DNA from: Octopus vulgaris | Taxonomy: Eukaryota | Assembly (NCBI GenBank): GCA_951406725.2 | Contig: OX597815.1 | Span: forward strand, 155,806,001 to 155,870,000 | Reading direction: 5' to 3' | DNA: 64,000 nucleotides | Part shown: in pieces, positions 23,565 through 51,222 of the stretch | How positions within the stretch are numbered: the stretch's first letter is position 1 | How the letters are laid out: the number at the start of each line of letters is the position of its first letter | The notes under the pieces: generated by a model | What the model was told of the DNA's origin: nothing | What the model saw: the letters and a program-made list of their open reading frames with translations, nothing else | The model's database searches: none | Position numbers and translations under genes: made by a program

Positions 23565-25987
23565 ATGTATGTATGTAGGCAGTTTATACACACACACATA
23601 TGAATGGGTGTCTGTGAATAAACACATATATGAGTATATGTAGGCATGTGCATGTTTACATGTTCGTGTAATTGTATTTATGATATATATATATATATAT
23701 ATATATATACGTACACACACACACACACACATGTATGCACTTATCCCTATATTCTATTACTCGACTCTGAATTACTATATCGGTTTAAAATGTTTTACAT
23801 TCACAAAAATAACAACAACAACAGCAACAACAACAACAAAAATGGTTGGGATTTTGTATGGCTGCAAATAATATTCTTATAATTTGTCTGACATATGTTG
23901 AATATTAATATTTCTATCTTTTAGTGGAATGGTTGACGTAATGTTTTTATAATTAATATGACAAGTTTCTTATTGAAAAACTAAAACAACTCTATTTTTT
24001 TCCTCTGAATATTTTTTAATCGGTATTATTAATTAATGCTATCTGTAACGAGATATACTCCATCGCAGTATTCTTAAGACCTTATAACTATCCTGTTATC
24101 TAGACGAACGTTGTAACTAAAGAAAGCAAATTTACAATTGATAGTCATATCTGGACAATTCATAACAATTGCTTCTAATTTAGTCACAAGACCAGTGATT
24201 TTGAGTGGAGTAGTGCAGGCCTCATCGATTATGACATCAGTATTTGAATAGCATTGAAGTTTAGCTGTCCCAGAGGGATGAACAGCAAAATTGATTCGGT
24301 GAAATTTGAACACACAACGTAAATATTGCAAGCGCTTCCTCAGAAGAAATATTCTTTTCTACTCTACGCAGAAGGCCTGAACTTTTTGGGGAGGGGCCAA
24401 TCGTTTAGAACGACCCAGTACGCAACTGGTACTTAATTTATTGACACCTAAAGGAGGAAAGGTAAAGTCGACCTCAGCGGAATTTGAACTCCTCAGAAGA
24501 AATATTGAAAGCATTTCTTCCTACGCTGTTACTATTCTATTAATTCTCTGGTCTGTGACAAATAACAGTTTCTGATTTTAGCACAAGGCGAGAGGATTGA
24601 TACCATTGGCTCAGTACTTGGCTGGTACATTATTTTATGAACTCTGGAATAATGGAAGGCATAGTTCATCTCTGCGGAATTTGAACTCGAAACACAAACA
24701 GTCGGGGCAATTGCAGCAAATCACTTCTGATGCTTAAACTGTTCTACCAGCTCGCTGCTCTGTGGCAGAAGATAATAATAATGAAATGGTTAAACAGAAT
24801 TTGCAGTTGGAACAAAAGTTGCTTGTTTTTGGGCATAGAATATGGGTAAACGATCTCTGTATAATAAATTAATCGCAAATGCTCAGAGAAATAATTATGA
24901 ATTCCATAGATCAATAGTCAAATACCGATAAAAAGGAACGAATTTATTTAGGTGCGCATAAAGTGGGAAGCATCAGGTTCTGGTAAATTCACGAACTCCG
25001 TCACATACAGAGTTTATAAAACACACGAATTTACTCATCAAATCATATTTCATTATATCAGACAGCCTTATGAAATTAAATTATTTATACTTAAATATTT
25101 TGGCCGTCACTGCGTTCGTAAATTAAATTAAATCTACTATCTGCATGAGACATTCATAAAAGTCTGTCTTGTTTATTATACAGTAACCCCTCTTTTGCTG
25201 TCTGCTGTAAGGTTGATGAACGCGACAGTCTTTTACAACTGACTAATATATCTAGAAAATTTAATCAATATATTTAATTTAGAAACGTGGCAGCGGTGAA
25301 CGTCTTTAAATATGACCTAAAGGAATCTTTAACATGAGAAATAAACACTGCTAGCTCACCAGTATATTTGTTTAACAGCCTTATGAAATGCGAGAATAGA
25401 GAAAATATGGACAAAGCGGCCAGTTGTAAAAATGCCACAGGCCATGTAGAAATTTAGAAGGATGACGTTAATATTGTGATTGAGAAAGTGCCATGAAAGC
25501 CGACAAAAGCACAAACACTAAAGCAGATCTATTTTACTAAAGACAACAACAGAAATAATGGAAAATGCAATTATAGTTACCACCAAGAACAAAAGATGGA
25601 TAACCATTTAATAGAAATACTAAAAAAGAAGCCAATAAATACGGACTAGAAATGAGAAATGAAAATAATTGTAGCATAATTGACAGAGCTATAGTAACCT
25701 GTAGGTGCTACTGAAATGTAACTGCAGACATGGAGAAAAATGGAGCAAACAGCCACTTTGTTCATCGTAAAATCTGTCAGAGTTACACTAGCATCAAAAG
25801 GAAGCAGGAAGATATTTTACCTACACAAACAAGAGCTATTGTGGTAGGAACTCGATAATCTACAGAGCATTATCATTAAAGAAGAAAATATGAATGAAAG
25901 ATGCACATACACCTACACGATGAGGATACAGTGCACATCATTGGCACGCATGCATCAGTCGAGTATCAATTTAAAAAATGACTTAAA

Positions 25988-26541
25988 GTGGTGAGCTGGC
26001 AGAAACGTTAGCACGCCGGGCGAAATGCGTAGCCGCATTTCGTCTGCGCTTACGTTCTGAGTTCAAATTCCGCCGAGGTCGACTTTGCCTTACATCCTTT
26101 CGGGGTCGATAAATTAAGTACTAGTTACGCACTGGCGTCGATATAATCGACTTAATCCGTTTGTCTGTCCTTATTTGTCCCCTCTGTGTTTAGCCCCTTG
26201 TAGGTAGTAAAGAAATAGGTATTTCGTCTGTCTTTATCTTTTGAGTTCAAATTCCGCCGAGGTCGACTTTGCCTTTCATCCTTTCGGGGTCGATTAAATA
26301 AGTACCAGTTACGCACTGGGCTCGATATAATCGACTTAATCCGTTTGACTGTCCTTGTTTGCCCTCTCTGTGTTTAGCCCCTTGTGGGTAGTAAAGAAAT
26401 AGGTATTTCGTCTGTCTTTAAGTTCTGAGTTCAAATTCCGCCGAGGTCGACTTTGCCTTTTATCCTTTTGTATTGTGGTCGATCTAATCGACTAGCCCCT
26501 CCCCAAAAATTTCGGGCCTTGTGCTTAGAGTAGAAAAGAAT
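25988..26541 (+). mobile_element. SINE family A concatemer (head + 2 head-less units)
   Basis: tRNA-like head GGTGAGCTGGCAGAAACGTTAGCACGCCGGGCGAAATG...GAGTTCAAATTCC. Central GAGGTCGACTTTGCCTTTCATCCTTTCGGGGTCGAT..AATAAGTACCAG resembles the MetaSINE central domain. Units restart at GTATTTCGTCTG at ~26219 and ~26403. Confidence 0.9.
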
Positions 26542-28189
26542 ATTAAAAATGACTCTGAAGCTAGTGTAGCAGATTATTTCGCTGTAGTAGATACTCCAAC
26601 GCGCAAATTTACCATAAATAAAACCAAAGATAGTTCTCACATACATCTATTATAATGTCACATTAATCATACTGTTAAATGTCAGAGATCTGTTATAACT
26701 TATTAACAGAAGTACAACTCCTTACACGCGAGAACATTCCAGATACAATCAAGTAATATGCATGACATTTACAGAAACACATCTTGCAATTAACATAACA
26801 TGATGCATTCATACTAAAGTATGTCGTTTATTTGGTATTGTCACGAAAGAAAGATGTTATGGTAGAGCTATAATGTACATATATGTAGATGTATCGACTA
26901 TTAAATGCCTCAAATGATGGGAAACATTTGAAGTGATTCTTGAATAGATAGAACTGATATTAACCCAACTGGATCAATATTTTGATGTACTTCTCTTGGG
27001 TAACTTATATCTCTACAATCTCAAATGGTCTGTATGCCCCAGTTTCTGTGATATCTAACGAGAAGCAATAATACTCCAAATCTGTGCCATAAATAACACT
27101 GATCTCATCCATAATGTGAAGATGATGTCTACGAATTCCGTTGATGATAAAATGAAGAATTAACGATTAAAAATAATAGAATTAACAAATTGTAGACATG
27201 TACCTCAGGAAGCACTCGAATTTTATCCAGCTTAAATTTCACAAGAAATCAGTCCAGAAAATGATCTTTAGACGTAGCTGGCTTGACTGTCATTGTAAGA
27301 CAATGGTAGGAAACGTATTTGTGTTGATAAAGCAAGCTGTATGCATTAAATTTATTTTAAAGAGAAAGGCAAACATTCACAAAACTAGAGGCGAAATAAA
27401 AAGATCTCGGAGATTATCAAATGCTAAATCACAGAGATAAAGTTTGGGAGTTTTTTATTGGCTTGTTGAGTCTACAAGAAAGTGCCTTGCCTATGACTTT
27501 TGTAAGACCCTCAAGACTAATGAGTTTGATGCTATTAATGTTCTATTTAAATAATTGTAGCTCAATACCTGCGGCAAAGACATAAACAGGGAGAAAATTT
27601 CTGAGGACTGAGCATAATTTTTAGGTACCCCCATGGTGCAATACGTCAGATGTGATTTAAGAGGCTCAGTATGTTAGTTGTTTCTGTTACACTAAAATAA
27701 CCGCAACACTATTGAAAAGATATCATCATCTCAAATGTCAAATACACAACTACATTTATGTATTAACAGCGAAGTGTGTAGTTACATTTTATAAGAGAAG
27801 ATATCATATATCTTTGCTAAACGTTTGCACAAATAAAAATACACTAAAAATATATATTGATCACCATATGAAAAATTTTTTACTAAAAACATTTTTACTG
27901 GCAGATGATTAGAAAAATAGATATACAAGTTCATAGGCAGTTATAAAAACAAATACATATGCATAATATATCATAAATGCAGACTATTATGTATGTATTA
28001 TATATGCCCAAGATGCCACTCAATGAAACCGAACCATGTGGTTAGGAAGCAAGCTTTTTACCACATAACACAGATGCCGCGAGGTATATATATATATATA
28101 TTAACAGGATCAAGTTCATCAGTCTTGGGGGGGTCTTGAAAAAGTCGTGGACGAGGCTCTTTCCTTTAGACTCAATAAGCAAAAAAAAA

Positions 28190-28590
28190 AAAAACAGATT
28201 TTATTTCTGTCTTTTTACTTAATTCATTAGACCTTGGCCGTGCTGGAACACCACTTTCAAGAATTTTTGTTGAATTAGTCGACCGCAGTACGTTTTTTTT
28301 ATGCCTGACACTTACTCTTTTGGTTTCTTTTGCTGAACCTCTAGCATACGGGGACGTAAACATACTAACACCGCTTGTCAAATGGTGGCGATGGACTAGC
28401 ACTGGCACAAAGACACACAAAAACACACATGTATGCGACGGGCTTCTTTCAGTTTCCGTCTAGTAAATTCACTCACAAGGATTTGGCCGGCCCGAGGCTA
28501 AAGTAGAAGACACTTGCATAAGGTGCCGCGCAGTGAGATTGAACCATATGTTTGGGAAGCAAGCTTTTTGCCACATACCACAGAGGCCGC
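28190..28590 (-). mobile_element. SINE family B, diverged copy
   Basis: Reverse complement of 60466-60860. Confidence 0.75.
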
Positions 28591-28817
28591 GAGGTATTTA
28601 GCTTGAGAATCCAATCGTCGCTGGTATTTTATTTATTTACTTTGAAAAGATGAAAGCCAAAGCTGACTGCAGCAGATTTGAACTCACTGTGCTGCCTGTC
28701 AGAACAGATACAGTTAGACATTCTGTAATGCTCTAACAATTCCTGCATTTCCATCATGCACACACTATTTACTGCTTAACGTGTTTCTCAGTAATTCCCA
28801 ACATATCCCACATACCT

Positions 28818-30448
28818 GTGAAATCTCGTATCGTGTTTTGTGTGATTTGTGTGTTTTTTTAAGGTTGTTTTGTGCTGCTTTGCAGCGGTCCTTTGGTTGT
28901 GCTTCTATCTGTTTTAGGGAGAGCAGGGTATGGCAATGAAAGGAATGTTCTATTCGAACCTTTGTGATTTCGAATTATCTTATTCGGAGGAGGAGCTTAT
29001 AATGGCAGTGGACAGAAAGGATAAGCATTTGGAAAGAAAAAGCTTTGCTGAAGTGACGGACTGCAAAAAATGGAAGTGAACTTAAGAAATATAGAAAAGT
29101 ATGGAAGAATGGCTCACAGAATAGGGGGTGACGTTAAGTTGTAACCACCACAAAAGATATTGGAAGAAATGGACAAAAGAAAAACAGTTTACAAGGTATA
29201 TTCTGGGAAAGAAAAGAAAATAGTACATGTGGAGTCTGAAGAAATAGAAAGGACATTATGCACAATATGGCAAGATATAGTATACCTGGCGAGAGGCAAC
29301 AAATATGGAACTATTGTGGTCCATTTTAAGACAGAAGCAAAAACGAAGGAACATGCCAAAACTACAGTGAAATCGGAAAACTAGTCCTTCTACCTACTTA
29401 TCTTGGAAGAAGTTTCAAGCTTAGGGTAGAAGGAATCCCGCCGGACATAGATGTGGCTTGGGTTGCGGCGGCTGTTCTTCTAGGAAGTAAGGAAGAAACA
29501 GCCGTCCTCCAAGTCACAGAAACAGTAAATTCGATTTGGAAAGGCAAAACAATGGACCTAATTATACAGGCTACAGTGGAAACATTGGAAGGTTTGGTGG
29601 AGACAGTAACAATAGGAAATATGATTTTGAGAGTGTAGGCACATGGTAGAATGCTTCGTTGTTTTATATGTGGCCAAAAAGGCCACATTAGAGCACACTA
29701 CCCTTTATAGAAGCAAGGAGGTCGGTCAGGAGGAAGATGGAAAGGAGCCGGAGAAGGAGCAGGTACAAGAGAAAGAAAAGAAAAATGTAGAAGAGTGGAC
29801 AGTAGCAGAAGGAAGAAAGCGGAAGAAAGGACAGTGTGAAGTGGAACCCTAAACCATACCCACCCCAACCATTCCCTCTCAGACCCATTCATCCCCACAG
29901 ACACCAAACCCACCCATTCCCCTCTTACATAGAGCAAAAGGAAAAAAGAAAAACGGACATACCAGAATGCACAAAATTCCCCTCCCAGTGATAATTGATA
30001 CGTATGTATGATGACGAAAGATATAGACAAAGAATTGCTTAACAAGATAAAGTGGAAAACTGCTAAATCTATTAACGTAGAAGGTTGTACAAGCATAATA
30101 GGATGGCACTCGTGTGTGATGGTGACAGAAAGTCAAAAGGAAGAAATAGTGAAATTTAAGAAAGGACAGAAGTGTTGGAAGGTAATTGCTGATCTAAAAA
30201 CGATACCGGACAATGTGAGATACGAGGTGCTAGTGGAGGAATATGGCATAGATATTCTGAAAGACTTGTAGTACAAAAGACAAAAGGAAGTAGGCGCAAA
30301 CAGCACATTTTCATTATTCATTTTCATATTATAATTCATGTTATCATAAGTTTTAATTTTTATTTTTCAGTTTTATTTATTTTTTCATGTTATGTGTCCC
30401 CACATATATTGTCCCCTCTGCGTTGGCTCCTTGTGGGCAATAAAACAC
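28818..30448 (+). mobile_element. ORF1-only non-LTR retroelement (Tx1/L1-type ORF1 with CCHC knuckle), 22-bp TSD
   Basis: Perfect direct repeat TCCCAACATATCCCACATACCT at 28796-28817 and 30449-30470. Disrupted ORF from ATG 28930 with KSFAEV, RRM-like GTIVVHFKTE and LRVEGIPPDI, LRV*AHGRMLRCFICGQKGHIRAHYP (CCHC knuckle, last Cys lost) and EWTVAEGRKRKK. T-rich 3' UTR and AATAAA at 30439. No APE or RT motifs. Confidence 0.85.
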
Positions 30449-31434
30449 TCCCAACATATCCCACATACCTCATGGCACTTGTTTGACTGCTTGACTGAAC
30501 ATCTTTAAGATATCTGTTGTTTTGATAATGAACTCCTCATTCTACACTATTTATGTTCTGCGATTCACTCAACTCGGCATCACTCAGTGGCCGGTGTAGA
30601 TCTACACCATGGTTCCATAGATCTTCGTCTCTAACGCAAAGGGTATTGAATTTAATTTTGCACAATTGCACTCTTCTTTTTCTTTAACACGCACTTCAAC
30701 ATCTTATACACACGATATACAAACATACATACCGATTCACAACAAAAAGCACCCAAAACGACATAGACTACACAGTCACATAAAAGTACCTCTTTATCTT
30801 CTCCCACAGGTACACCCATAGCGCAAGCACAATCGGTAACTTATATTCACTCTCCATATCACTTACACTTCTCCTAACATACACCAATCAACAAACACTG
30901 TCGAAAGGCATTTACACAGCTGGTATGCACACACACACACGCGTGTACACAAATGCATACATGTCCCAAGAGTATATTTATGCATACATCCACAAATAAT
31001 AGGCCTCAAACACTGGGTTCGGAATATATACACAACAATAAACACACATATGCGTATACATCGCATACACAAATTTCGTACCTTCACACCCATTCATACT
31101 AACTCATATATGAAGGGTTCAAAATACACACACGAACATGGAAAGAAGCATGCACAAATATGCTTTAAAGCACACGGACACACAGATGCATGCACAAACT
31201 CTTTTGAAACCAACTCTCTTCTGTGTTACCTCTGGTCATTCGACCATTGCCATTTTCACCCACTATTTCTGTTTCTTCTTCCCTAGCTCTATACATTCCC
31301 CTTCTAACTGCTTAACTTTCCGAAGAACTAATGAGCGTCAAAAACACTTCTACTTTCTAACCTCTCGTTGAAAGTCAAACTCATAATTATATTATCACTT
31401 TGTTTTCGCATTGTTATACCCATCATTAATTTTG

Positions 31435-39109: not shown

Positions 39110-39637
39110 TGTGGCGAGCTGGCAGAAGCGTTAGAAATGCTTAGCAGTATTTCGTCTGCAGCTACGTTCTGAGTTCAAATTCCGACGAGGTCGACTTTGC
39201 CTTTCATCCTTTCGAGGTCGATTAAATAAGTACCAGTTACGCACTGGGGTCGATATAATCGACTTAATCCGTTTGTCTGTCCTTGTTTGTCCTCTCTTTG
39301 TTGAGCCCCTTGTGGATAGTAAAGAAATAAGTATTTCGTCTGTCTTTATCTTTTGAGTTCAAATTCCGTCGAGGTCGACTTTACCCTTTATCCTTTCGGG
39401 GTCGATAAATTAGGTACCAGTTGTGTACTGGGGTGATGTAATCGAGTGATCCACTCCCAGAAAATTTCGGGCCTTGTGCCTAAAGTAGAAAAGAATCGTT
39501 AGCACGCCGGGTAAAATGCTTAGTGGCGTTTTATTGATTTTCATATTCATGAATACCAGTTGAGCATTGAAGTCGATGTAAACGACGTACCCCTACCCTG
39601 AAATTGCTGGCATTGTGTCAAAATTTGAAACCAATAT
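39110..39637 (+). mobile_element. SINE family A composite (nested/concatemeric) with 13-bp TSD
   Basis: TTCTACCTTCTGA (39097-39109) and TTCTATCTTCTGA (39638-39650) flank the composite. Internal restarts at ~39331 (GTATTTCGTC) and ~39492 (AGAATCGTTAGCACGCC). Confidence 0.85.
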
Positions 39638-42108
39638 TTCTATCTTCTGAATTTATGAATTGTTCTTACTGATAATTTAGTTTATTATCAAAGACAATTA
39701 AAATCAGTATAGGCTTTTTATTATATATGAGATATCAGCAGTACTAAATGGTGAGCTGGCAGAATCGTTAGCACGTCGGGCAAAATGGTTGCCGGCGTTT
39801 CTTCCGACTCTTTACGTTTGAGTTGAAATCTCGCTGAGATCAATTATTGCCTTTCCTCTCTACGGGACCAATAAAACGAAGTATCATTTAAGTGCTAGGT
39901 TAATGAGATCAACTTGTCTCTTCTCCTCAATATCGCTGGTCTACTTAATCACTGCAGTAGACTGGAGTCTCATTGAAGGGGAATTTGTGATCCCGGTCAC
40001 TTATAGGCCATAGAAACCTAATAATCAACTTTATGAGTTCCGAGTTTGGAGAAAAATATCTTAAAAAATATCCCTAATTTTTAAAAATATAATTTATATT
40101 CCCATTTCTCCCTCTCCTGAAACAAAAGGCCTTTTGTGCATAATGAAAATGTATCAATATGCTACATATTCCATTATATGATATGAAGAACAGTAACTGA
40201 TATGAGCCCGCATCGAGGCAGGTTTTCTTTTGATTCTTGACTGAAAGTTTTGAACTTATTCGGATAGAGATCTCACAAAATGGTATTACGGTCATTAAAG
40301 TCTATTTTCTAACGTAATAAGGGCATAATAAATGATTCAGTTTTCTATATATTAATACTTTAATAGAAAGACACAACGTTTTCTTCTAGAGGAGAGGATA
40401 TGAATCCCTCTCAAAGATAATAACGGCATAAAAATGGCTTGGACATTGACAATTGAATCTATATAGTAAATACTGCAAGATGGGAGCTTGTCTCTTCTAT
40501 TTTCTCTTACTTAATATATCACCATCATCATCAATTAACTCTGGCTTCCATGTTGGCTCGAATGAGATCATTCGACAAAACCCAGTGAGTCGAAGACTGT
40601 GATATATGCCAATATCTTCTCTGGAATGGTTTCTACAACTGGACACTGTTCCTCGTGTCTTCTACTTCACGGAGAGCACAAACAACGTGTGAACTCAACG
40701 ACGGTCGTTTATATTGCGAGAAATAAGAGCCTAATATTCTTAGAATCACATCTCACCGTCTTTAAAAAAGTAAAAATATTACATAATGAAATTCTAGATA
40801 TACAACGAAAGGATGTAGCTGCGGTTGGAACGCCTCTGATCAAAAGTCTGATCGACCAAGCTGATTTAGCATACATATACTGCTTTAACAGATATTCAAG
40901 GTGTAGTTAGTCTGATATCTCTTCACTAAGATCTCTCTCTTTCTGTGCTCCCCTCCTCTCTTCCTCTGCTTCTGTTTGTCTTCTCTTCTGTGCTGAAGTT
41001 TTTACTACTTTGTTATAAGCTGCATTATAGAAATGATGTGACGCCATAAGACAGACAAATATCAAAATTTTTAACGTCATTCGAACGGTTTAATTCGATA
41101 TTTTTTTCCCGATCTCCCGTTCGGCTTTTATATCTTTTCATGGTTCATAGAATAACACTGCTTTTCGTGCTTTTATTTTTTTTATTTTGGAGATCGCAAA
41201 GAAATTCTTCACTAGTTATCTTCTCAATGCAAGACAGCTTGACGAAAACGAAGATATACGCTATTTTTAATCACGTCAATTAGATCCTTGTCCTAACTTT
41301 TGGAGTTTAGTTCCAGATCTGAAATTAATCAAGATCAACTAAAATGATAAAGGACAATATAGAACTTTCGGTAAAGAATCATGTTTTTTTTAAAGTTCTG
41401 AACAAAATATGCTAATTTCTAAGTATTCGAAAATACCTTAAGAATAAAAGAAAAATACTGAGAAAGCGAAAAGATTGATAAGTAGTTATGTAAGTATGTC
41501 GATAGATGGATATATGAGGACAGGTTAACGTATTTTGGAAGATTGATTAAGGGAAAGTTAAATATAAAAATACTAGTCACCACAAGTAGTCTAGAATTGT
41601 TTCAATTCTTGATGGAACCATTAACTTCTACCATCTCTAATATCCAAATTATTGATATATTTCGGTCAGCGTTGGCAAATCAACGACTCAATAAAAATTA
41701 ATGTCACGTGATTTCAATAATACCTGTGTAAAGCCCTTTTTTTAAAATAAGGAATTCTGTAAAACACGATAATTTAACGACAGGAAGGAAAGAAAAGAAA
41801 CAAGAAAGAGAAAATATATTTAAACGTTTTCATACATTGGTATTATATTATTTCATACTTTAGCCTGTCAATGGCATATTATATGGGTTTTAAGCACCAA
41901 ATAATTTTATGTTGATGCATCTGTGTGACCTTCCTGCTAAATTATTATCATTACTATAACTATTTCACTCAACTGATTCCACCGAGGTCGGCTTTTCATC
42001 ATTTCGGGGTCGATAAGTACCGGTCAAGTACTGGGATCGATGTTATTGACTAACTTCTGACCCCTAGAACTGCTGGCACTTTGCTAAAATTTGAAACTGC
42101 TATTATTT

Positions 42109-42344
42109 CTTATTTCTTTACTGCCTACAAGGGGCTACACACAGAGGGGACAAACAAGGACAGACAAAGGGATTAAGTCGATAATATCGACCCCAGTGGG
42201 TAACTGGTACTTATTTAATCGAACCCCGAACGGATGAAAGGCAAAGTCGACCTCGGCGGAATTTGAACTCAGAACGTAGCGGCGGGTGAAGTACCACTAA
42301 GCATTTCGCCTGGCGTGCTAACGTTTCTGTCAGCTCGCCGCCTT
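42109..42344 (-). mobile_element. Full-length SINE family A monomer with 14-bp TSD
   Basis: TSD AACTGCTATTATTT (42095-42108) / AACTGCTATTGTTT (42345-42358). Complete head-to-tail copy on the minus strand. Confidence 0.9.
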
Positions 42345-42601
42345 AACTGCTATTGTTTAAATAAGTAGGATGTGGATTGACAGAATCGTTAGACCGCCGA
42401 GCAAAATGATTAACTGAATTTTTTCGACTCTTCTACGTTCTGAGTACAAACGCCGCTGACGTCCATTTTGTCTTTCATCCTTTCGAGGTCGTTAAAACTA
42501 AGTGTCAGTTGAGCACATGGGTCGATGTAAGTGACTTCCCCTTCACACAAAATAGCAGACCTTGTGGCAAAAATTAGAATTATTATCATTAGACCACTGA
42601 A

Positions 42602-43570
42602 AGCAGCAAGCTGACAGAATCGTTAGTACACCGGGGGAAATGCTTAGCGGTATTTCGTCTGCCGCTACGTTCTGAGTTCAAATTCCGCCGAGGTCGACTT
42701 TGCCTTTCATCCTTTCGGGGTCGATTAAATAAGTACCAGTTATGCACTGGGGTCGATATAATCAAATTAATCCGTTTGTCTGTTCTTGCTTGTCCTCTCT
42801 GTGTTTAGCCCCTTGTGGATAGTAAAGAAATAGGTATTTCGCCTGCTGCTACGTTCTAAGTTCAAATTCCGCTGAGGTCGACTTTGCTTTCATCGTTTCG
42901 GGGTCGATTATTTAAGTAACAGTTACACACTGGAGTCGATATAATCGACTTAATCCGTTTGTCTGTCCTTGTTTGTCTTCTCTGTGTTTAGCCTCCTGTG
43001 GGTAGTAAAGAAATAGGTATTTCGTCTGCTGCTACGTTCTGAGTTCAAATTCCGCCGAGGTCGACTTTGCTTTTCATCCTTTCGAGGTCGATTAAATAAC
43101 TACCAGTTATGCACTGGGGTCGATATAATCGACTTAATCCGTTTGTCTGTCCTTGTTTGTCCCCTCTATGTTTAGTCCCTTGTGGGCAGTAAAGAAATAA
43201 GAATAGTCGGCATACCGGGCAGAATGCTTAGCGGCATTTAGTCCGTCATTGTTCTCATTTAAAATTTCACCGAGGTCGACTTTACCTTTTATCTTTTCAG
43301 CGTCGATGAAATATGTATCAGCCAAGCCTATCCCCACTCCCCCAAAATTGCTGGCCTTGTGCCTATAGTAGAAAGGCGGCGAGCTGGCAGAATCGTAGCA
43401 TGCCGGGCAAAACGTCCAGGTTTTCAGTTCAAATTCTGCCGAGGTCCACTTTGCCTTTCATCCTTTTGAGTTCGATAAAATAAGTACCAGTTGAGCACTG
43501 GGGTCGATGTAATTGACTTATCCCTTCGCCCCAAATTTCTGGCCTTGTGCCAAAATCTCAAACCAGCATT
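42602..43570 (+). mobile_element. SINE family A array (three ~184-bp units plus two further copies)
   Basis: Units joined by AAAGAAATAG|GTATTTCG at ~42833 and ~43017. Further copies start at ~43200 and ~43375. Confidence 0.9.
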
Positions 43571-47832: not shown

Positions 47833-48309
47833 TCGATAAAGAGATTTCTAATATAGATTTCATGTTGTTTGCTATGGTCCGATCTGGAGTATATAATGCT
47901 GTAAGCGTACTGACTCCTTTACAATTGCTTAGATAATAAGTACTTGTAATCTTTGCTTTTGCTAAGGAAACCTAATAAGACTGAAACTTATCTGAAGTTA
48001 TCTCCGACACACACCCAAATAGAATAATAATCAGATGTTCGTCATATCAAAGCATCTAATTAGATTTGTTAATGATCACTGCAATAAATATATTAGCATT
48101 AACGTAACTATTATTACTGCATTTGTTACTTCTCTTTTGCTAAATCTGTATACAATGTACACTACATTTATTTCAGTCATTCAATTCTGTGAAAACCCAC
48201 ACTTTATGTTTGCTTGTTTTATTGTATATTCCCCCTCGTCCGCTGCTCTGGTACCATATAAAAGAAATTACTATTTATATCATTATTACAACAACAACAA
48301 CAACAATAA

Positions 48310-50318
48310 ATTAAGTGAAACAGCAATATTAGAATAACAACCGAAATGATAACCGAACAGGCAACAAAAATCCCAAACTGAAGATGCCCAGGCCCGGATG
48401 GTGTACAAGGATGTTGGCTGAAAAATTTCCCAGCTCTACACAGAATAATAGCTAGGCAAATGGATAAAATGTTTAACAACGGGTGGCAAATCTTAAAGTG
48501 ACTGACCACAGGTAAAACAATTCTTTGCCAAATGATTCCAGTAAAGAAATTGCAGTGGATTACCGGCCTATCACCAGCCTGCCTCTGATGTGGAAACTCA
48601 TGACAGGAATAATATTTAATTATGTGTATAACTTACTGGAAATGAACGACAAACTGCCAGTGGAACAGAAAGAAAAGCCAAGGAACAAAAGGCCAACTTC
48701 TGATAGACAGAATGGTACTGAACGACTGCAAGAAAAGACTTACTAATCTGCGCATGGCGTAGATCGATTATAAGAAAGCGTATGAAATGGTCCCCCATTC
48801 CTTGATTTTAGAAAATCTTGAGCTGGAACAGGTGTCTGATAACATATCAAATTTTATTATGAGATCAATGAAGAACTAAAATACAGAGTTAACTTCACGT
48901 GGAAAATTTTTGGCGAGGATTAACATAAAGAGATGCATATTTCAAGGAGATAGCCTATCAGCATTGCAGTTTGTACTTTGTAGGATGCCCCTCACACAAA
49001 TACTGCGGAAAGTGATATCGGAGTACACCTTGAAAAGTGGAGTAAAATTAAAACATCTGATATATATAAATAGCTTAACGATCTTTGGGAAGACCGAACG
49101 TGAAATAAATGGCCTAGTTTCAACAGTGCAGATATTCAGTAAGGATATCGGAATGGAATTTGGGACTAAAACGTGTGGTATGTTTATTATACAAAAAGGC
49201 AAAGTAGTGTCGTCTGATGGTCTAGAGCTACCCAACGGCAAGAAAATCAAGGATATTGAGACTGATGGATATAATTATCTGGCTATTTTGGAATATGAAA
49301 AAAATCGAGGAAAGTGAAATGAAGGAGAGCTTTAGGAGAGAATATCTCAGAAGAACCAAATTAATTATGGGAAATAGACTCAATGGAAAAAAGAAAAAAC
49401 AAGATCAGGGCAATGAACATATGGTCTGTTTATTTAATGCGATATGGTGCAGGTGTTGTTAGCTGGACAAAGAACGAGTTTGAGGAAATGGACAGGAAAA
49501 CTAGGAAAGTGATGACAACAGGGATATTGACAGGCTGTATGTGTCTAGGAACAGGAGAGGCAGTGTGCTCATAGGATGCTAGATCTCTGTTGTCAACGAG
49601 ACGAGAAGAAAAGTCTGGGATGGTACATCAAGCTTGCCGCTGTTAGAATTAACAATATAATACCTACCGAAAATGCGATGCACCCACAAACATTTAAGAA
49701 ACAAAATGAAGAAGAAAGAGTAAACAACTGGAAAATGAAACCACTGCAAAGGCAATACCTCAGAGAAATCAAAGGAAAAGACAAGATAAATACTTGGAGA
49801 TGGCTAAGAAAAAGGGATATGAAAGAATGCACCGAGGCATTGATATGCAGAGCCCAGGAACAATTTGTGAGAACTAATCACACAAAGTTCCAAATAGGTA
49901 AGACCAGCGAATCATTCCTATGTAGGATGTTTGGCAGCAAAAACGAAACAATCTCAGAGCGTCCCGGATACATATTGTGAGTTAGCAAGCTGGCCGAAAA
50001 GCACTACAAAAGGAGGTACGATAACCTGGCTAAGTTCGTCCGCTGGAGGATATGTGAAAAGTATTGCCTGAACAGAGCATGGAAATGGTGCGCACATGAA
50101 CCAGAAAGAATCATCGAAAACAAGGAATATAAGATACTATGGGATATCACAATTCAATTTGACTCCGTAATCGATGCTCGTAGACCAGATATTGTTGTGG
50201 TAGATAAAGGAAAACAGGAAACCAAGATTATAGATATTGCAATACCTGGGAATGCACGCATAAATGACAAAGAACTAGAAAAGATAGAAAAATACAGACT
50301 ACTAAAAGACGAAATTCC
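48310..50318 (+). mobile_element. R4/Dong-type non-LTR retrotransposon fossil (RT + CCHC + RLE)
   Basis: PGPDGVQGCWLK, DYRPITSLPLMWKL, A*IDYKKAYEMVPHS, IFQGDSLS, HLIYINSL (for HLLYMDDL), DIGMEFG..TC, TEALICRAQEQ, CRMFGSKNETIS, LWDITIQFDSVIDARRPDIVVVDK...IIDIAIPGN...KIEKY (PD-(D/E)xK). Starts right after a (CAA)n tract. Confidence 0.92.
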
Positions 50319-50855
50319 AAAATTAAACGGACAGAATAAGATTGAAGCTATCAACAACTGGGCGGTTTCATTCCTTAGATATGGGATACTCCACCCAAAA
50401 AGTGATACAGACAAACTGTATGTGTCAAGAAAAAGAGGGATAAGAGGACTGATTTGATGAGTTTATGATTTGGTGTGACCATGAGATAGAGAATAGGAAA
50501 CCAGACATAGTGTTAATTGAGAAAGAAAGCAAACTATGGTGGATCATAGATATAGCATGCCCAGCCGACAATAAGGTGTGTAATAAGGAAGAAAAAAGGT
50601 CGATAGCCTGGGAGGTTAAGCGGTTGTGGTCGCTGAAAAAGGTGGTAGTAGTATCATTAATTGTCGGAGCCCTGGGAATAGAGAGTAAAACATTTGAGAA
50701 GTATATGAAATAAATAGGGGCTGCAATAAGGGTGGAGCACTTGCAGAAAATAGCACTGTTTGGAACCGCAAGAATACTCCGGATTGTACTCGAAAAATAA
50801 GGAGTGTTATCTTAGTTTACTGGTAGCGAACAGCTGACACTGTAGTACATCTCCA
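50319..50855 (+). mobile_element. Second R4/Dong-type element, internally deleted (thumb fragment fused to RLE and 3' end)
   Basis: KLNGQNKIEAINNWAVSFLRYG / LHPKSDTDKLYVSRKRGIRGLI, then RKPDIVLIEK...IIDIACPAD...IVGALG...LQKIALFGTARILR. Confidence 0.8.
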
Positions 50856-50879
50856 ACCGGGGGTGGGGGGTGGAGTCAA

Positions 50880-51107: not shown

Positions 51108-51222
51108 CACCTGTTGTCAGCTGGACATGCTATATCTATGATCCAGAATCGCTTACTTTCTTTCTCAATTAATACTATGTCTGGTTTCCTATTCTATATC
51201 TCATGGTTGCACTGAATCATAA
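51108..51222 (-). mobile_element. Inverted RLE fragment of the R4/Dong family
   Basis: Reverse complement closely matches 50463-50578. Confidence 0.85.

What the first reader, a model, noticed from the sequence alone, without database searches (positions are those of the whole stretch)
28796..30470. ORF1-only retroelement with perfect 22-bp TSD that shares its 3' tail with the dominant SINE: candidate three-part LINE / half-LINE / SINE system
Seen: a complete 1.63-kb insertion bounded by a perfect 22-bp duplication. It contains a 5' UTR, a disrupted ORF with SFA, RRM-like and CCHC motifs, a T-rich 3' UTR and AATAAA, and has no EN/RT motifs or room for them. Its last ~36 nt (TTGTCCCCTCTGCGTT-GGCTCCTTGTGGGCAATAAA, 30409-30444) match the SINE family A tail (composite of copies: TTGTCCCCTCTGTGTTTAGCCCCTTGTGGGCAGTAAA) at 32/37 positions. 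The small stem-loop GC(C/T)C-CTTGT-GGG(C/T) is preserved through G-U wobble changes. Known: SINEs borrow the 3' tail of their partner LINE, long TSDs are typical of APE-type L1/Tx1 insertion, and ORF1-only HAL1 (half-L1) elements exist in some lineages. Inference: this is a HAL1-like family that keeps its own RNA-binding ORF1 and uses a Tx1/L1 RT in trans, through the same tail signal the SINE uses.
Basis: partly seen in the sequence, partly recalled or inferred. Interest (0 to 1): 0.8.

Follow-up and report, generated by a model that had tools for sequence, protein, structure and literature searches.

The report
Octopus half-LINE sharing a SINE tail
A decayed 1.6-kb octopus jumping gene carries only a predicted RNA-binding protein gene and ends in the same short tail as a common short repeat, so both likely borrow the copying enzyme of a full-length partner element that was not seen here.

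Summary
Confirmed: a 1,631-nt insertion (28818-30448) lies between perfect 22-nt duplications. It holds a broken ORF of a large octopod protein family, whose model has two RRM-like domains plus one zinc knuckle. There is no endonuclease or reverse transcriptase (RT). Its last 36 nt match one of three tail forms of a local SINE (29-33 matches over 37-41 columns per copy).

Both refuting tests failed. Contigs from other loci cross the ORF1-stop/3'UTR and 3'UTR/tail joins, and many tail-bearing contigs have element-type, not SINE-type, sequence upstream. The insertion itself is shared by four organism labels at about 2% divergence.

Corrections: the tail folds no better than shuffles. The 4-bp hairpin shows two-sided changes only between the SINE's tail forms. 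There is no poly(A). This copy sits in single-copy DNA.

Not shown: the partner LINE, Tx1 membership, trans-mobilisation, and the direction of tail transfer.

Verdict: a new variant of known ORF1-only LINEs (HAL1, HeT-A, Ag-Sponge). The scan has noted this arrangement before on other DNA of this genome.

The parts
28796..28817 (+). 5' target-site duplication, 22 nt
   Evidence: unique to these two places in the window
28818..28929 (+). 5' UTR, 112 nt, T/G-rich; shared with other copies
   Evidence: 46% T; summed contig depth rises from 61 in the flank to 381 at 28822-28908 in X1 and from 13.5 to 233 in X5 (not a copy number)
28930..30271 (+). Broken ORF1-like gene (about four frameshifts, six premature stops)
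   Evidence: 133 of 153 fetched proteins hit it at E<1e-3
29150..29655 (+). Two predicted RRM-like (ferredoxin-fold) domains; limits approximate, mapped from homolog P0039
   Evidence: AlphaFold model pLDDT 75; top Foldseek hits are tandem-RRM proteins, E 5e-4; VIA Z up to 7.7 for residues 60-142 and 142-225; mapping by tblastn
29660..29701 (+). Single CCHC zinc knuckle, fourth Cys lost in this copy
   Evidence: 16 of 32 homologs match zf-CCHC at E<=0.5
29999..30268 (+). 90-aa open C-terminal segment, unassigned; shared with paralogous loci at DNA level
   Evidence: no match to the C-terminal domain of other family members; single-sequence model pLDDT 38
30272..30408 (+). AT-rich 3' UTR; its last ~25 nt recur in front of the tail in other copies
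   Evidence: tables 7 and 8
30409..30448 (+). Tail shared with the SINE (match 30409-30444): 4-bp hairpin with CTTGT loop at 30426-30438, AATAAA at 30439-30444, no poly(A)
30449..30470 (+). 3' target-site duplication
25990..26540 (+). SINE array: two monomers with the element-like tail, one with another tail form
39134..39490 (+). SINE with element-like tail, followed by a unit with another tail form
42107..42345 (-). Stand-alone SINE with element-like tail
42596..43204 (+). SINE array, three monomers with element-like tail

Best explanation
This is a decayed copy of a multi-copy octopus retroposon family that carries only a broken ORF1-like gene (predicted RNA-binding) and the same 36-nt tail as one form of a common SINE, and it was likely inserted by the endonuclease and reverse transcriptase of a full-length, probably Tx1-type, LINE that would recognise that tail. 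Shown: the anatomy, the TSD, the protein family, other loci with the same ORF1-UTR-tail order, and the tail shared with the SINE. Inferred steps: (1) a master copy is transcribed from its own 5' UTR. (2) Its ORF1 protein (two RRM-like domains plus a knuckle) coats the RNA and may co-assemble with the partner's ORF1, as proposed for HeT-A/HAL1 in PMC5786205. (3) The partner's ORF2 protein binds the poly(A)-less tail, probably the small CTTGT-loop hairpin, nicks the target and reverse-transcribes from the 3' end. (4) A second nick 22 nt away gives the TSD. (5) The copy then decayed; other copies differ from it at three of its premature stops and at the lost Cys codon.
For: TSD and absence of EN/RT. 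Family: 251 clusters at E<=1e-3 to homolog P0004 (the list also holds unrelated knuckle and low-complexity proteins); 133 of 153 fetched proteins hit the element; 14 of 21 looked-up homologs carry a name, all octopod (O. vulgaris, O. sinensis, O. bimaculoides, Argonauta). Paralogous contigs, present beside the orthologous one in the same run, cross the stop codon into the UTR (X1 record 3, 30119-30325, 13 other letters; X11 record 20, 30119-30345) or run from just behind the stop to the tail (X10 record 14 and X6 record 30, 30296-30410; X1 record 8), so every possible ORF1/3'UTR junction is crossed by at least one other locus. One contig each in X6 and X10 joins coding position 30167 to tail position 30409 (letters between not given). 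Loose ends in front of the tail read element-like ('...TATATGTCCCCAC...' type) in groups of 8-17 contigs per run, beside SINE-like groups. Other contigs differ at stops 29636, 29708 and 29930 and at 29700 (2, 12, 10 and 28 contigs in X1). Across the SINE's three tail forms plus the element (19 sequences), 3 of 4 hairpin pairs change on both sides; covariation 0.63 against 0.21 shuffled (0 of 500) and at most 0.23 slid. O. vulgaris has 80 L1-Tx1 families, 13 recently active (PMC13282606). RRM+CCHC ORF1s in non-mammalian animals are described as consistent with Tx1 (PMC5203782).
Against: No autonomous partner seen: no genome held, no ORF1-ORF2 fusion among 7,976 long candidates (weak), nothing in JGI metagenomes. 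No single paralogous contig spans a whole element, and no second TSD was seen. Element-type tails could partly belong to full-length LINEs. The hairpin covariation rests on about three events, on an alignment I anchored on the loop; RNAalifold predicts no pair on it, and single tails fold no better than shuffles. Differences to paralogs in the C-terminal coding part show no third-position excess (10 of 26 sites). The ZCCHC3-type match in the Atlas is borderline (0.90, 168 shared features), and Pfam gave no ZCCHC3 domain among the 25 of 39 families shown. The flanks are single-copy in depth, unlike the SINE-head targeting that earlier notes describe for Tx1 families in this genome.
Confidence: 0.62

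Rival explanations
1. An ORF1-only family that captured its tail from the SINE (by template switch or a SINE landing in an early master copy). It works the same way in trans, but the tail went SINE to half-LINE rather than LINE to both.
For: The significant match stops near 30409 and covers only the SINE's last ~40 nt. Tail swapping is common in mollusc SINEs (PMC4758252 passages). No LINE with the tail was seen here.
Against: No SINE body remains upstream in this copy, nor in the element-type contigs. The usual direction is LINE to SINE (PMC3747384).
Confidence: 0.13
2. An ORF1-only passenger of a LINE outside Tx1/L1 (for example of the I, Jockey or CR1 groups, which also have RRM+CCHC ORF1s; recalled).
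For: ORF1 type alone does not fix the clade; HeT-A derives from Jockey and Ag-Sponge from CR1 (PMC5786205). Tail-sharing SINE pairs are rare in the L1 clade: 3 SINEs for over 800 LINE families (PMC3747384).
Against: Long exact TSD; a borderline Atlas lead to ZCCHC3-type RRM1/RRM2/CCHC clusters; abundant L1-Tx1 in octopus; unchecked earlier notes report Tx1 elements with this kind of tail.
Confidence: 0.12
3. A one-off internal deletion of ORF2 from a full-length LINE, later copied passively with its surroundings.
For: No whole second copy with its own TSD was seen; the copy is decayed.
Against: Paralogous contigs cross every possible junction, differ by roughly 6-10%, and tail-bearing contigs go on into other DNA behind 30444-5. 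Flank depth is single-copy.
Confidence: 0.07
4. A processed pseudogene of a domesticated ORF1-derived host gene, with the tail match left by an old SINE fragment in that gene's 3' UTR.
For: The intronless UTR-ORF-UTR-AATAAA layout; several homologs are annotated as host gene models.
Against: No poly(A). The family is split into more than 100 diverged lineages, many fragmentary, which is not the pattern of one conserved gene.
Confidence: 0.06

Closest known systems
HAL1 (half-L1) of mammals (PMC5753468 and PMC5786205, passages; the original paper was not read)
   Same: Encodes only ORF1; non-autonomous; long TSD; would need an ORF2 in trans.
   Different: ORF1 here is RRM-RRM-CCHC, whereas mammalian L1 ORF1 is coiled-coil/RRM/CTD (PMC5203782). 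There is no poly(A); the element ends in a sequence tail shared with a SINE. Mollusc host.
HeT-A (Jockey clade) and Ag-Sponge (CR1 clade), the other 'ORF1-present' non-autonomous LINEs (PMC5786205, passage)
   Same: ORF1-only architecture kept as a family; the protein is proposed to multimerise with the partner's.
   Different: Different clade. No sign of a telomere role here. That passage mentions no tail shared with a SINE for these.
Stringent SINE/LINE tail pairs, including the rare L1-clade ones (maize ZmSINE2/3, Chlamydomonas SINEX-3_CR; PMC3747384 passages)
   Same: A short 3' tail with a small stem-loop shared between a passenger and (presumably) its LINE.
   Different: Here a protein-coding half element and a SINE share the tail; the LINE itself was not seen; the hairpin is only 4 bp.
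Tx1-Mar and SINEU of crocodilians (PMC4494074 passages)
   Same: A Tx1 LINE inferred to mobilise a SINE in trans.
   Different: SINEU has poly(A), and the link rests on shared targets; SINEU-1 has no 3' similarity to a known LINE. No ORF1-only member appeared in the passages read.

Membership tests
ORF1-present non-autonomous LINE (class of HAL1, HeT-A, Ag-Sponge) | Encodes an ORF1-like protein | tested here: met
   Two RRM-like folds plus a knuckle in the homolog's model; zf-CCHC
ORF1-present non-autonomous LINE (class of HAL1, HeT-A, Ag-Sponge) | No ORF2 (EN/RT) | tested here: met
   1,631 nt filled by UTRs and ORF1; motif scan and Pfam negative
ORF1-present non-autonomous LINE (class of HAL1, HeT-A, Ag-Sponge) | Amplified as a family with the same junction | tested here: met
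   Paralogous contigs cross the stop/UTR and UTR/tail joins; whole copies with their own TSDs were not seen
ORF1-present non-autonomous LINE (class of HAL1, HeT-A, Ag-Sponge) | 5' and 3' parts derive from an identified autonomous LINE | not testable with these tools
   No genome held; empty
HAL1 proper | Mammalian L1-type ORF1 (Transposase_22: coiled coil, one RRM, CTD) | tested here: not met
   No Transposase_22 hit in 27 and 32 homologs (25 of 39 families shown in 58); no L1 ORF1p among 38 PDB sequence hits; the model has two RRM-like domains and a knuckle position
HAL1 proper | Poly(A) 3' end as in mammalian L1 (PMC3747384) | tested here: not met
   The element ends ...AATAAAACAC directly at the TSD
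Tx1 clade | RT phylogeny within Tx1 | not testable with these tools
   The element has no RT; partner not available
Tx1 clade | Type I ORF1 (RRM + CCHC) | tested here: met
   definition from PMC5203782. Not exclusive to Tx1
Tx1 clade | Detectable homology to Tx1/ZCCHC3-type ORF1 | tested here: inconclusive
   Atlas feature hit 0.90 with 168 shared features, structure TM 0.38-0.46 to ZCCHC3-domain clusters; no Pfam hit shown. The ZCCHC3-Tx1 link is recalled; a search found 0 papers
Tx1 clade | Target-sequence preference (many members) | tested here: inconclusive
   One site only; flanks single-copy in depth; no Rfam family at the site
Stringent SINE/LINE tail system | Shared 3' terminal sequence | tested here: met
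   Element versus 7 SINE monomers
Stringent SINE/LINE tail system | Conserved stem-loop with compensatory changes | tested here: inconclusive
   None within the shared tail form; 3 of 4 pairs across tail forms; not predicted by RNAalifold
Stringent SINE/LINE tail system | The tail is required for retrotransposition | not testable with these tools
   Needs a cell assay

The most novel reading that the evidence does not exclude
Octopods run a layered retroposon system. Tx1-type LINEs choose their RNA by a tiny poly(A)-less CTTGT-loop hairpin, and carry two classes of passengers: a SINE with at least three interchangeable tail forms, each keyed to a different LINE lineage, and a long-lived, highly diversified set of ORF1-only elements whose RNA-binding protein is kept under selection as a cofactor of the partner's machinery. 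It would be a non-telomeric counterpart of HeT-A, and a natural set of variants for asking how an L1-clade enzyme recognises a specific RNA.
Probability: 0.3. Interest if true: 0.72.

Novelty: new variant of a known kind. Interest (0 to 1): 0.5.

Why it matters
ORF1-only LINEs are listed for three clades (L1, Jockey, CR1; PMC5786205), and SINEs with L1-clade tails are rare (3 for over 800 families; PMC3747384). A Tx1-type system in which a protein-coding half element and a SINE share one poly(A)-less tail would add a fourth origin. It would also give a small, mutable signal (a 4-bp hairpin with natural compensatory variants) for testing whether sequence-specific RNA recognition is ancestral in L1 relatives. 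It would further suggest that many of the octopus 'CCHC-domain' and 'uncharacterized' gene models in this protein family are retroposon ORF1s. My searches found no paper describing this in cephalopods. Repbase and the O. vulgaris repeat library itself were not visible and may already hold the family.

Tried and rejected
Own-genome search: none held. JGI metagenomes: 0 matches to a tail pattern; 0 relatives of P0004 among 589 candidate stretches. ORF1-ORF2 fusions: none among 7,976 candidates of 1,092-3,115 aa (weak). The lack of EN/RT in 27 homologs is expected for any two-ORF LINE and was not counted as evidence for ORF1-only. The window's decayed RT element at ~48.2-50.8 kb was rejected as partner: no tail match with up to 2 mismatches.

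My by-eye match of the 90-aa C-terminal segment to the C-terminal domain of other family members failed (HMM of 8 members gave no hit at E<=10; phmmer best E 0.6), and its single-sequence fold was unusable.

An alternative 6-bp outer stem is 96% paired but shows no two-sided change. The codon-position test on 26 of the listed variant sites (30215 dropped as an orthologous-locus difference; the table was itself cut) was uninformative.

No RNA holder is listed on record; X3 is only guessed to be RNA and was not used for expression. No tRNA call and no Rfam family over 25900-31000. Weak Pfam hits below cut-off on the ORF pieces were treated as chance. No empty-site joint appeared among the 15 of 102 joints shown. 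Look-ups of earlier findings by sequence and nearby place returned nothing. PDB sequence search found only knuckle-driven hits.

Full report
Observation. The insertion is as described. A 22-nt sequence is repeated exactly at 28796-28817 and 30449-30470 and nowhere else in the window. Between lie a 112-nt 5' UTR, a broken reading frame from 28930 to 30271 and a 177-nt 3' region. The frame changes about four times and holds six premature stops; the first two changes are fixed by homologs, the third by composition only, the fourth by homolog P0009. There is no room for an endonuclease or RT, and a scan with six recalled motif patterns gave one chance hit. The element ends ...AATAAAACAC directly against the TSD, without poly(A). 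AATAAA sits where the SINE has AGTAAA, so I read it as part of the tail, not as a polyadenylation signal (inference).

Host and age. The window is inferred to be octopus DNA from its homologs. Contigs from four organism labels hold this same insertion: B, C and D cross the 3' junction with 9 differences over 400-420 nt (X6 record 25, X10 record 9, X11 record 19), and X5 record 25 crosses the 5' junction with 20 differences in 1,082 nt. X1 is identical to the window and may be its source, so it is not independent. Flank depth is that of single-copy DNA (58-61 in X1), so this copy did not land in a repeat.

The protein. The central piece found an O. bimaculoides protein at 52% identity. That protein found 251 clusters at E<=1e-3 (the list also holds unrelated knuckle and low-complexity proteins). 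Of 153 fetched proteins, 133 hit the element. Of 21 looked up, 14 carry a name, all from Octopus vulgaris, O. sinensis, O. bimaculoides or Argonauta hians. A model of full-length homolog P0039, built on 76 sequences, is confident (pLDDT 75). Foldseek's best hits are tandem-RRM proteins (E 5e-4 to 1e-2). VIA-align gives ferredoxin-fold matches for residues 60-142 and 142-225 with Z up to 7.7, which alone is only a common fold. One knuckle follows (16 of 32 members). This is a Type I ORF1, which PMC5203782 (passages) describes as consistent with Tx1 in non-mammalian animals. An Atlas search leans to ZCCHC3-type clusters, but only at the margin; the ZCCHC3-Tx1 link is recalled, and a paper search on it found nothing. 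The element's last 90 codons match neither Pfam nor the C-terminal domain of other family members.

Is it a family? Yes, on contig evidence. Beside the orthologous contig, the same runs hold diverged contigs that cross the stop codon into the UTR (X1 record 3, 30119-30325; X11 record 20, 30119-30345) and others that run from 30296-30301 to the tail start (X1 record 8, X6 record 30, X10 record 14, X11 record 23) or from 30370 to the tail end (32 of 428 pieces shown). Wherever an ORF2 might have been lost, another locus crosses that point. One contig each in X6 and X10 matches both coding position 30167 and tail position 30409, with the intervening letters not given. Other contigs differ from this copy at three premature stops and at the lost knuckle Cys, so the decay is largely this copy's own. 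Depth also rises over the 5' UTR, and in X5 joints at depth 713 (single copy about 13), apparently one contig, link the 5' UTR with three ORF stretches, suggesting a high-copy relative. What is missing: a whole second copy with its own TSD.

The tail. Positions 30409-30444 are the best local match to all 7 SINE monomers that carry this tail; 0 of 200 shuffles reached the score in six cases and 1 of 200 in one. In the runs, 31-39 contigs per run carry one common tail variant, and the loose ends in front of the tail fall into a SINE-like class and an element-like class, with groups of 8-17 contigs for the latter (consensus agreement only 0.56-0.67, so classes are mixed; 24 of 212 rows shown). 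The tail is therefore part of the family's 3' end and not a one-off SINE fragment. Some element-like tails may belong to full-length LINEs.

The hairpin. Within the shared tail form it is unproven: no two-sided change, 87.5% of cells paired, no folding advantage over shuffles, and RNAalifold prefers another stem. But the SINE's core occurs 18 times in the window with three tail forms (7, 5 and 6 copies; 17 from the BLAST and one added). Most keep a CTTGT-like loop (two rows were picked wrongly by the script and set by hand, none dropped). Over these 18 plus the element, 3 of 4 pairs change on both sides, 20 of 76 cells; covariation 0.63 against 0.21 in shuffles (0 of 500) and at most 0.23 when slid. 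This is about three evolutionary events on an alignment anchored on the loop, and RNAalifold predicts no pair on it, so it is suggestive only.

The partner. Not seen. The window's only RT element (48.2-50.8 kb; RVT_1 E=0.002; R4/Dong-like by recalled motifs) lacks the tail. No genome was held, and searches were empty. O. vulgaris has 80 L1-Tx1 families (PMC13282606 supplement), 13 of them recently active. Earlier notes of this scan report Tx1 elements with a poly(A)-less hairpin tail shared with this kind of SINE, ORF1-only partners, and targeting of SINE heads. These are unchecked leads. I could not test the partner claim, and the targeting does not apply to this copy.

Mechanism and odds. 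Most likely an ORF1-only passenger copied by target-primed reverse transcription by a tail-recognising, probably Tx1-type LINE (0.62). Rivals: tail captured from the SINE (0.13); partner of another clade (0.12); one-off deletion (0.07); pseudogene of a domesticated gene (0.06). The first three share the core reading, an ORF1-only family mobilised in trans, at about 0.87 together.

Known kinds. It works like HAL1, HeT-A and Ag-Sponge (PMC5786205; PMC5753468) but is not HAL1: different ORF1 type and no poly(A). The tail sharing is the classic stringent SINE/LINE arrangement, rare in the L1 clade (PMC3747384). Papers seen: passages of PMC4824008, PMC4758252, PMC5786205, PMC5753468, PMC4494074, PMC5203782, PMC3747384 and PMC8967140; part 1 of 3 of PMC13282606 plus term searches of its text and one supplement. 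The HAL1 original paper was not read. The label Nin/Deu-type for the SINE is recalled and untested. Nine searches found no description of ORF1-only elements in cephalopods; Repbase and the O. vulgaris library sequences were not visible. Verdict: real, a new variant of a known kind, interest 0.5.

Noticed in passing
window 19342, 24374, 26197, 26381, 26518, 37897, 39309, 39473, 42078, 42131, 42561, 42812, 42995, 43179, 43356, 43544, 46105, 51413 (loop starts): One SINE head/core carries three different tails. Most keep a CTTGT loop while the stem flips (GCCC/GGGY, GGGC/GCCT, TGGC/GCCA), which suggests several related partner LINEs.
   Followed up: partly
window 26037-26468, 39147-39490, 42649-43199: Head-to-tail 183-184-nt SINE arrays. 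In 5 of 7 copies the element-like tail is followed directly by the same internal point of the SINE head, consistent with repeated insertion at one site or with tandem duplication.
   Followed up: no
window 42107-42345 (-): A stand-alone SINE with the element-like tail has an apparent 10-nt TSD (AATAGCAGTT) outside any SINE head, so this tail form also lands at other sites.
   Followed up: no
window ~48200-50860 (+): Decayed non-LTR element with an RT fragment and restriction-like endonuclease motifs (R4/Dong-like, recalled); 50463-50571 recurs inverted at 51114-51222.
   Followed up: partly
run X5 contigs on window 28889-29950: Joints at depth 713 (single copy about 13), apparently one contig, link the 5' UTR and three ORF stretches: a probable young, high-copy relative in organism B.
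   Followed up: no
proteins P0004, P0005, P0010, P0013, P0024, P0039, P0055, P0059, P0064: A conserved ~86-aa C-terminal domain with no Pfam match in one branch of this ORF1 family; the window's element has a different C-terminal segment.
   Followed up: partly
proteins P0064, P0091: Gene models in which an ORF1 knuckle fragment is fused into host genes (RGS domain; SNF2 helicase), probably retroposon pieces taken up as exons by prediction.
   Followed up: no
   Followed up: no
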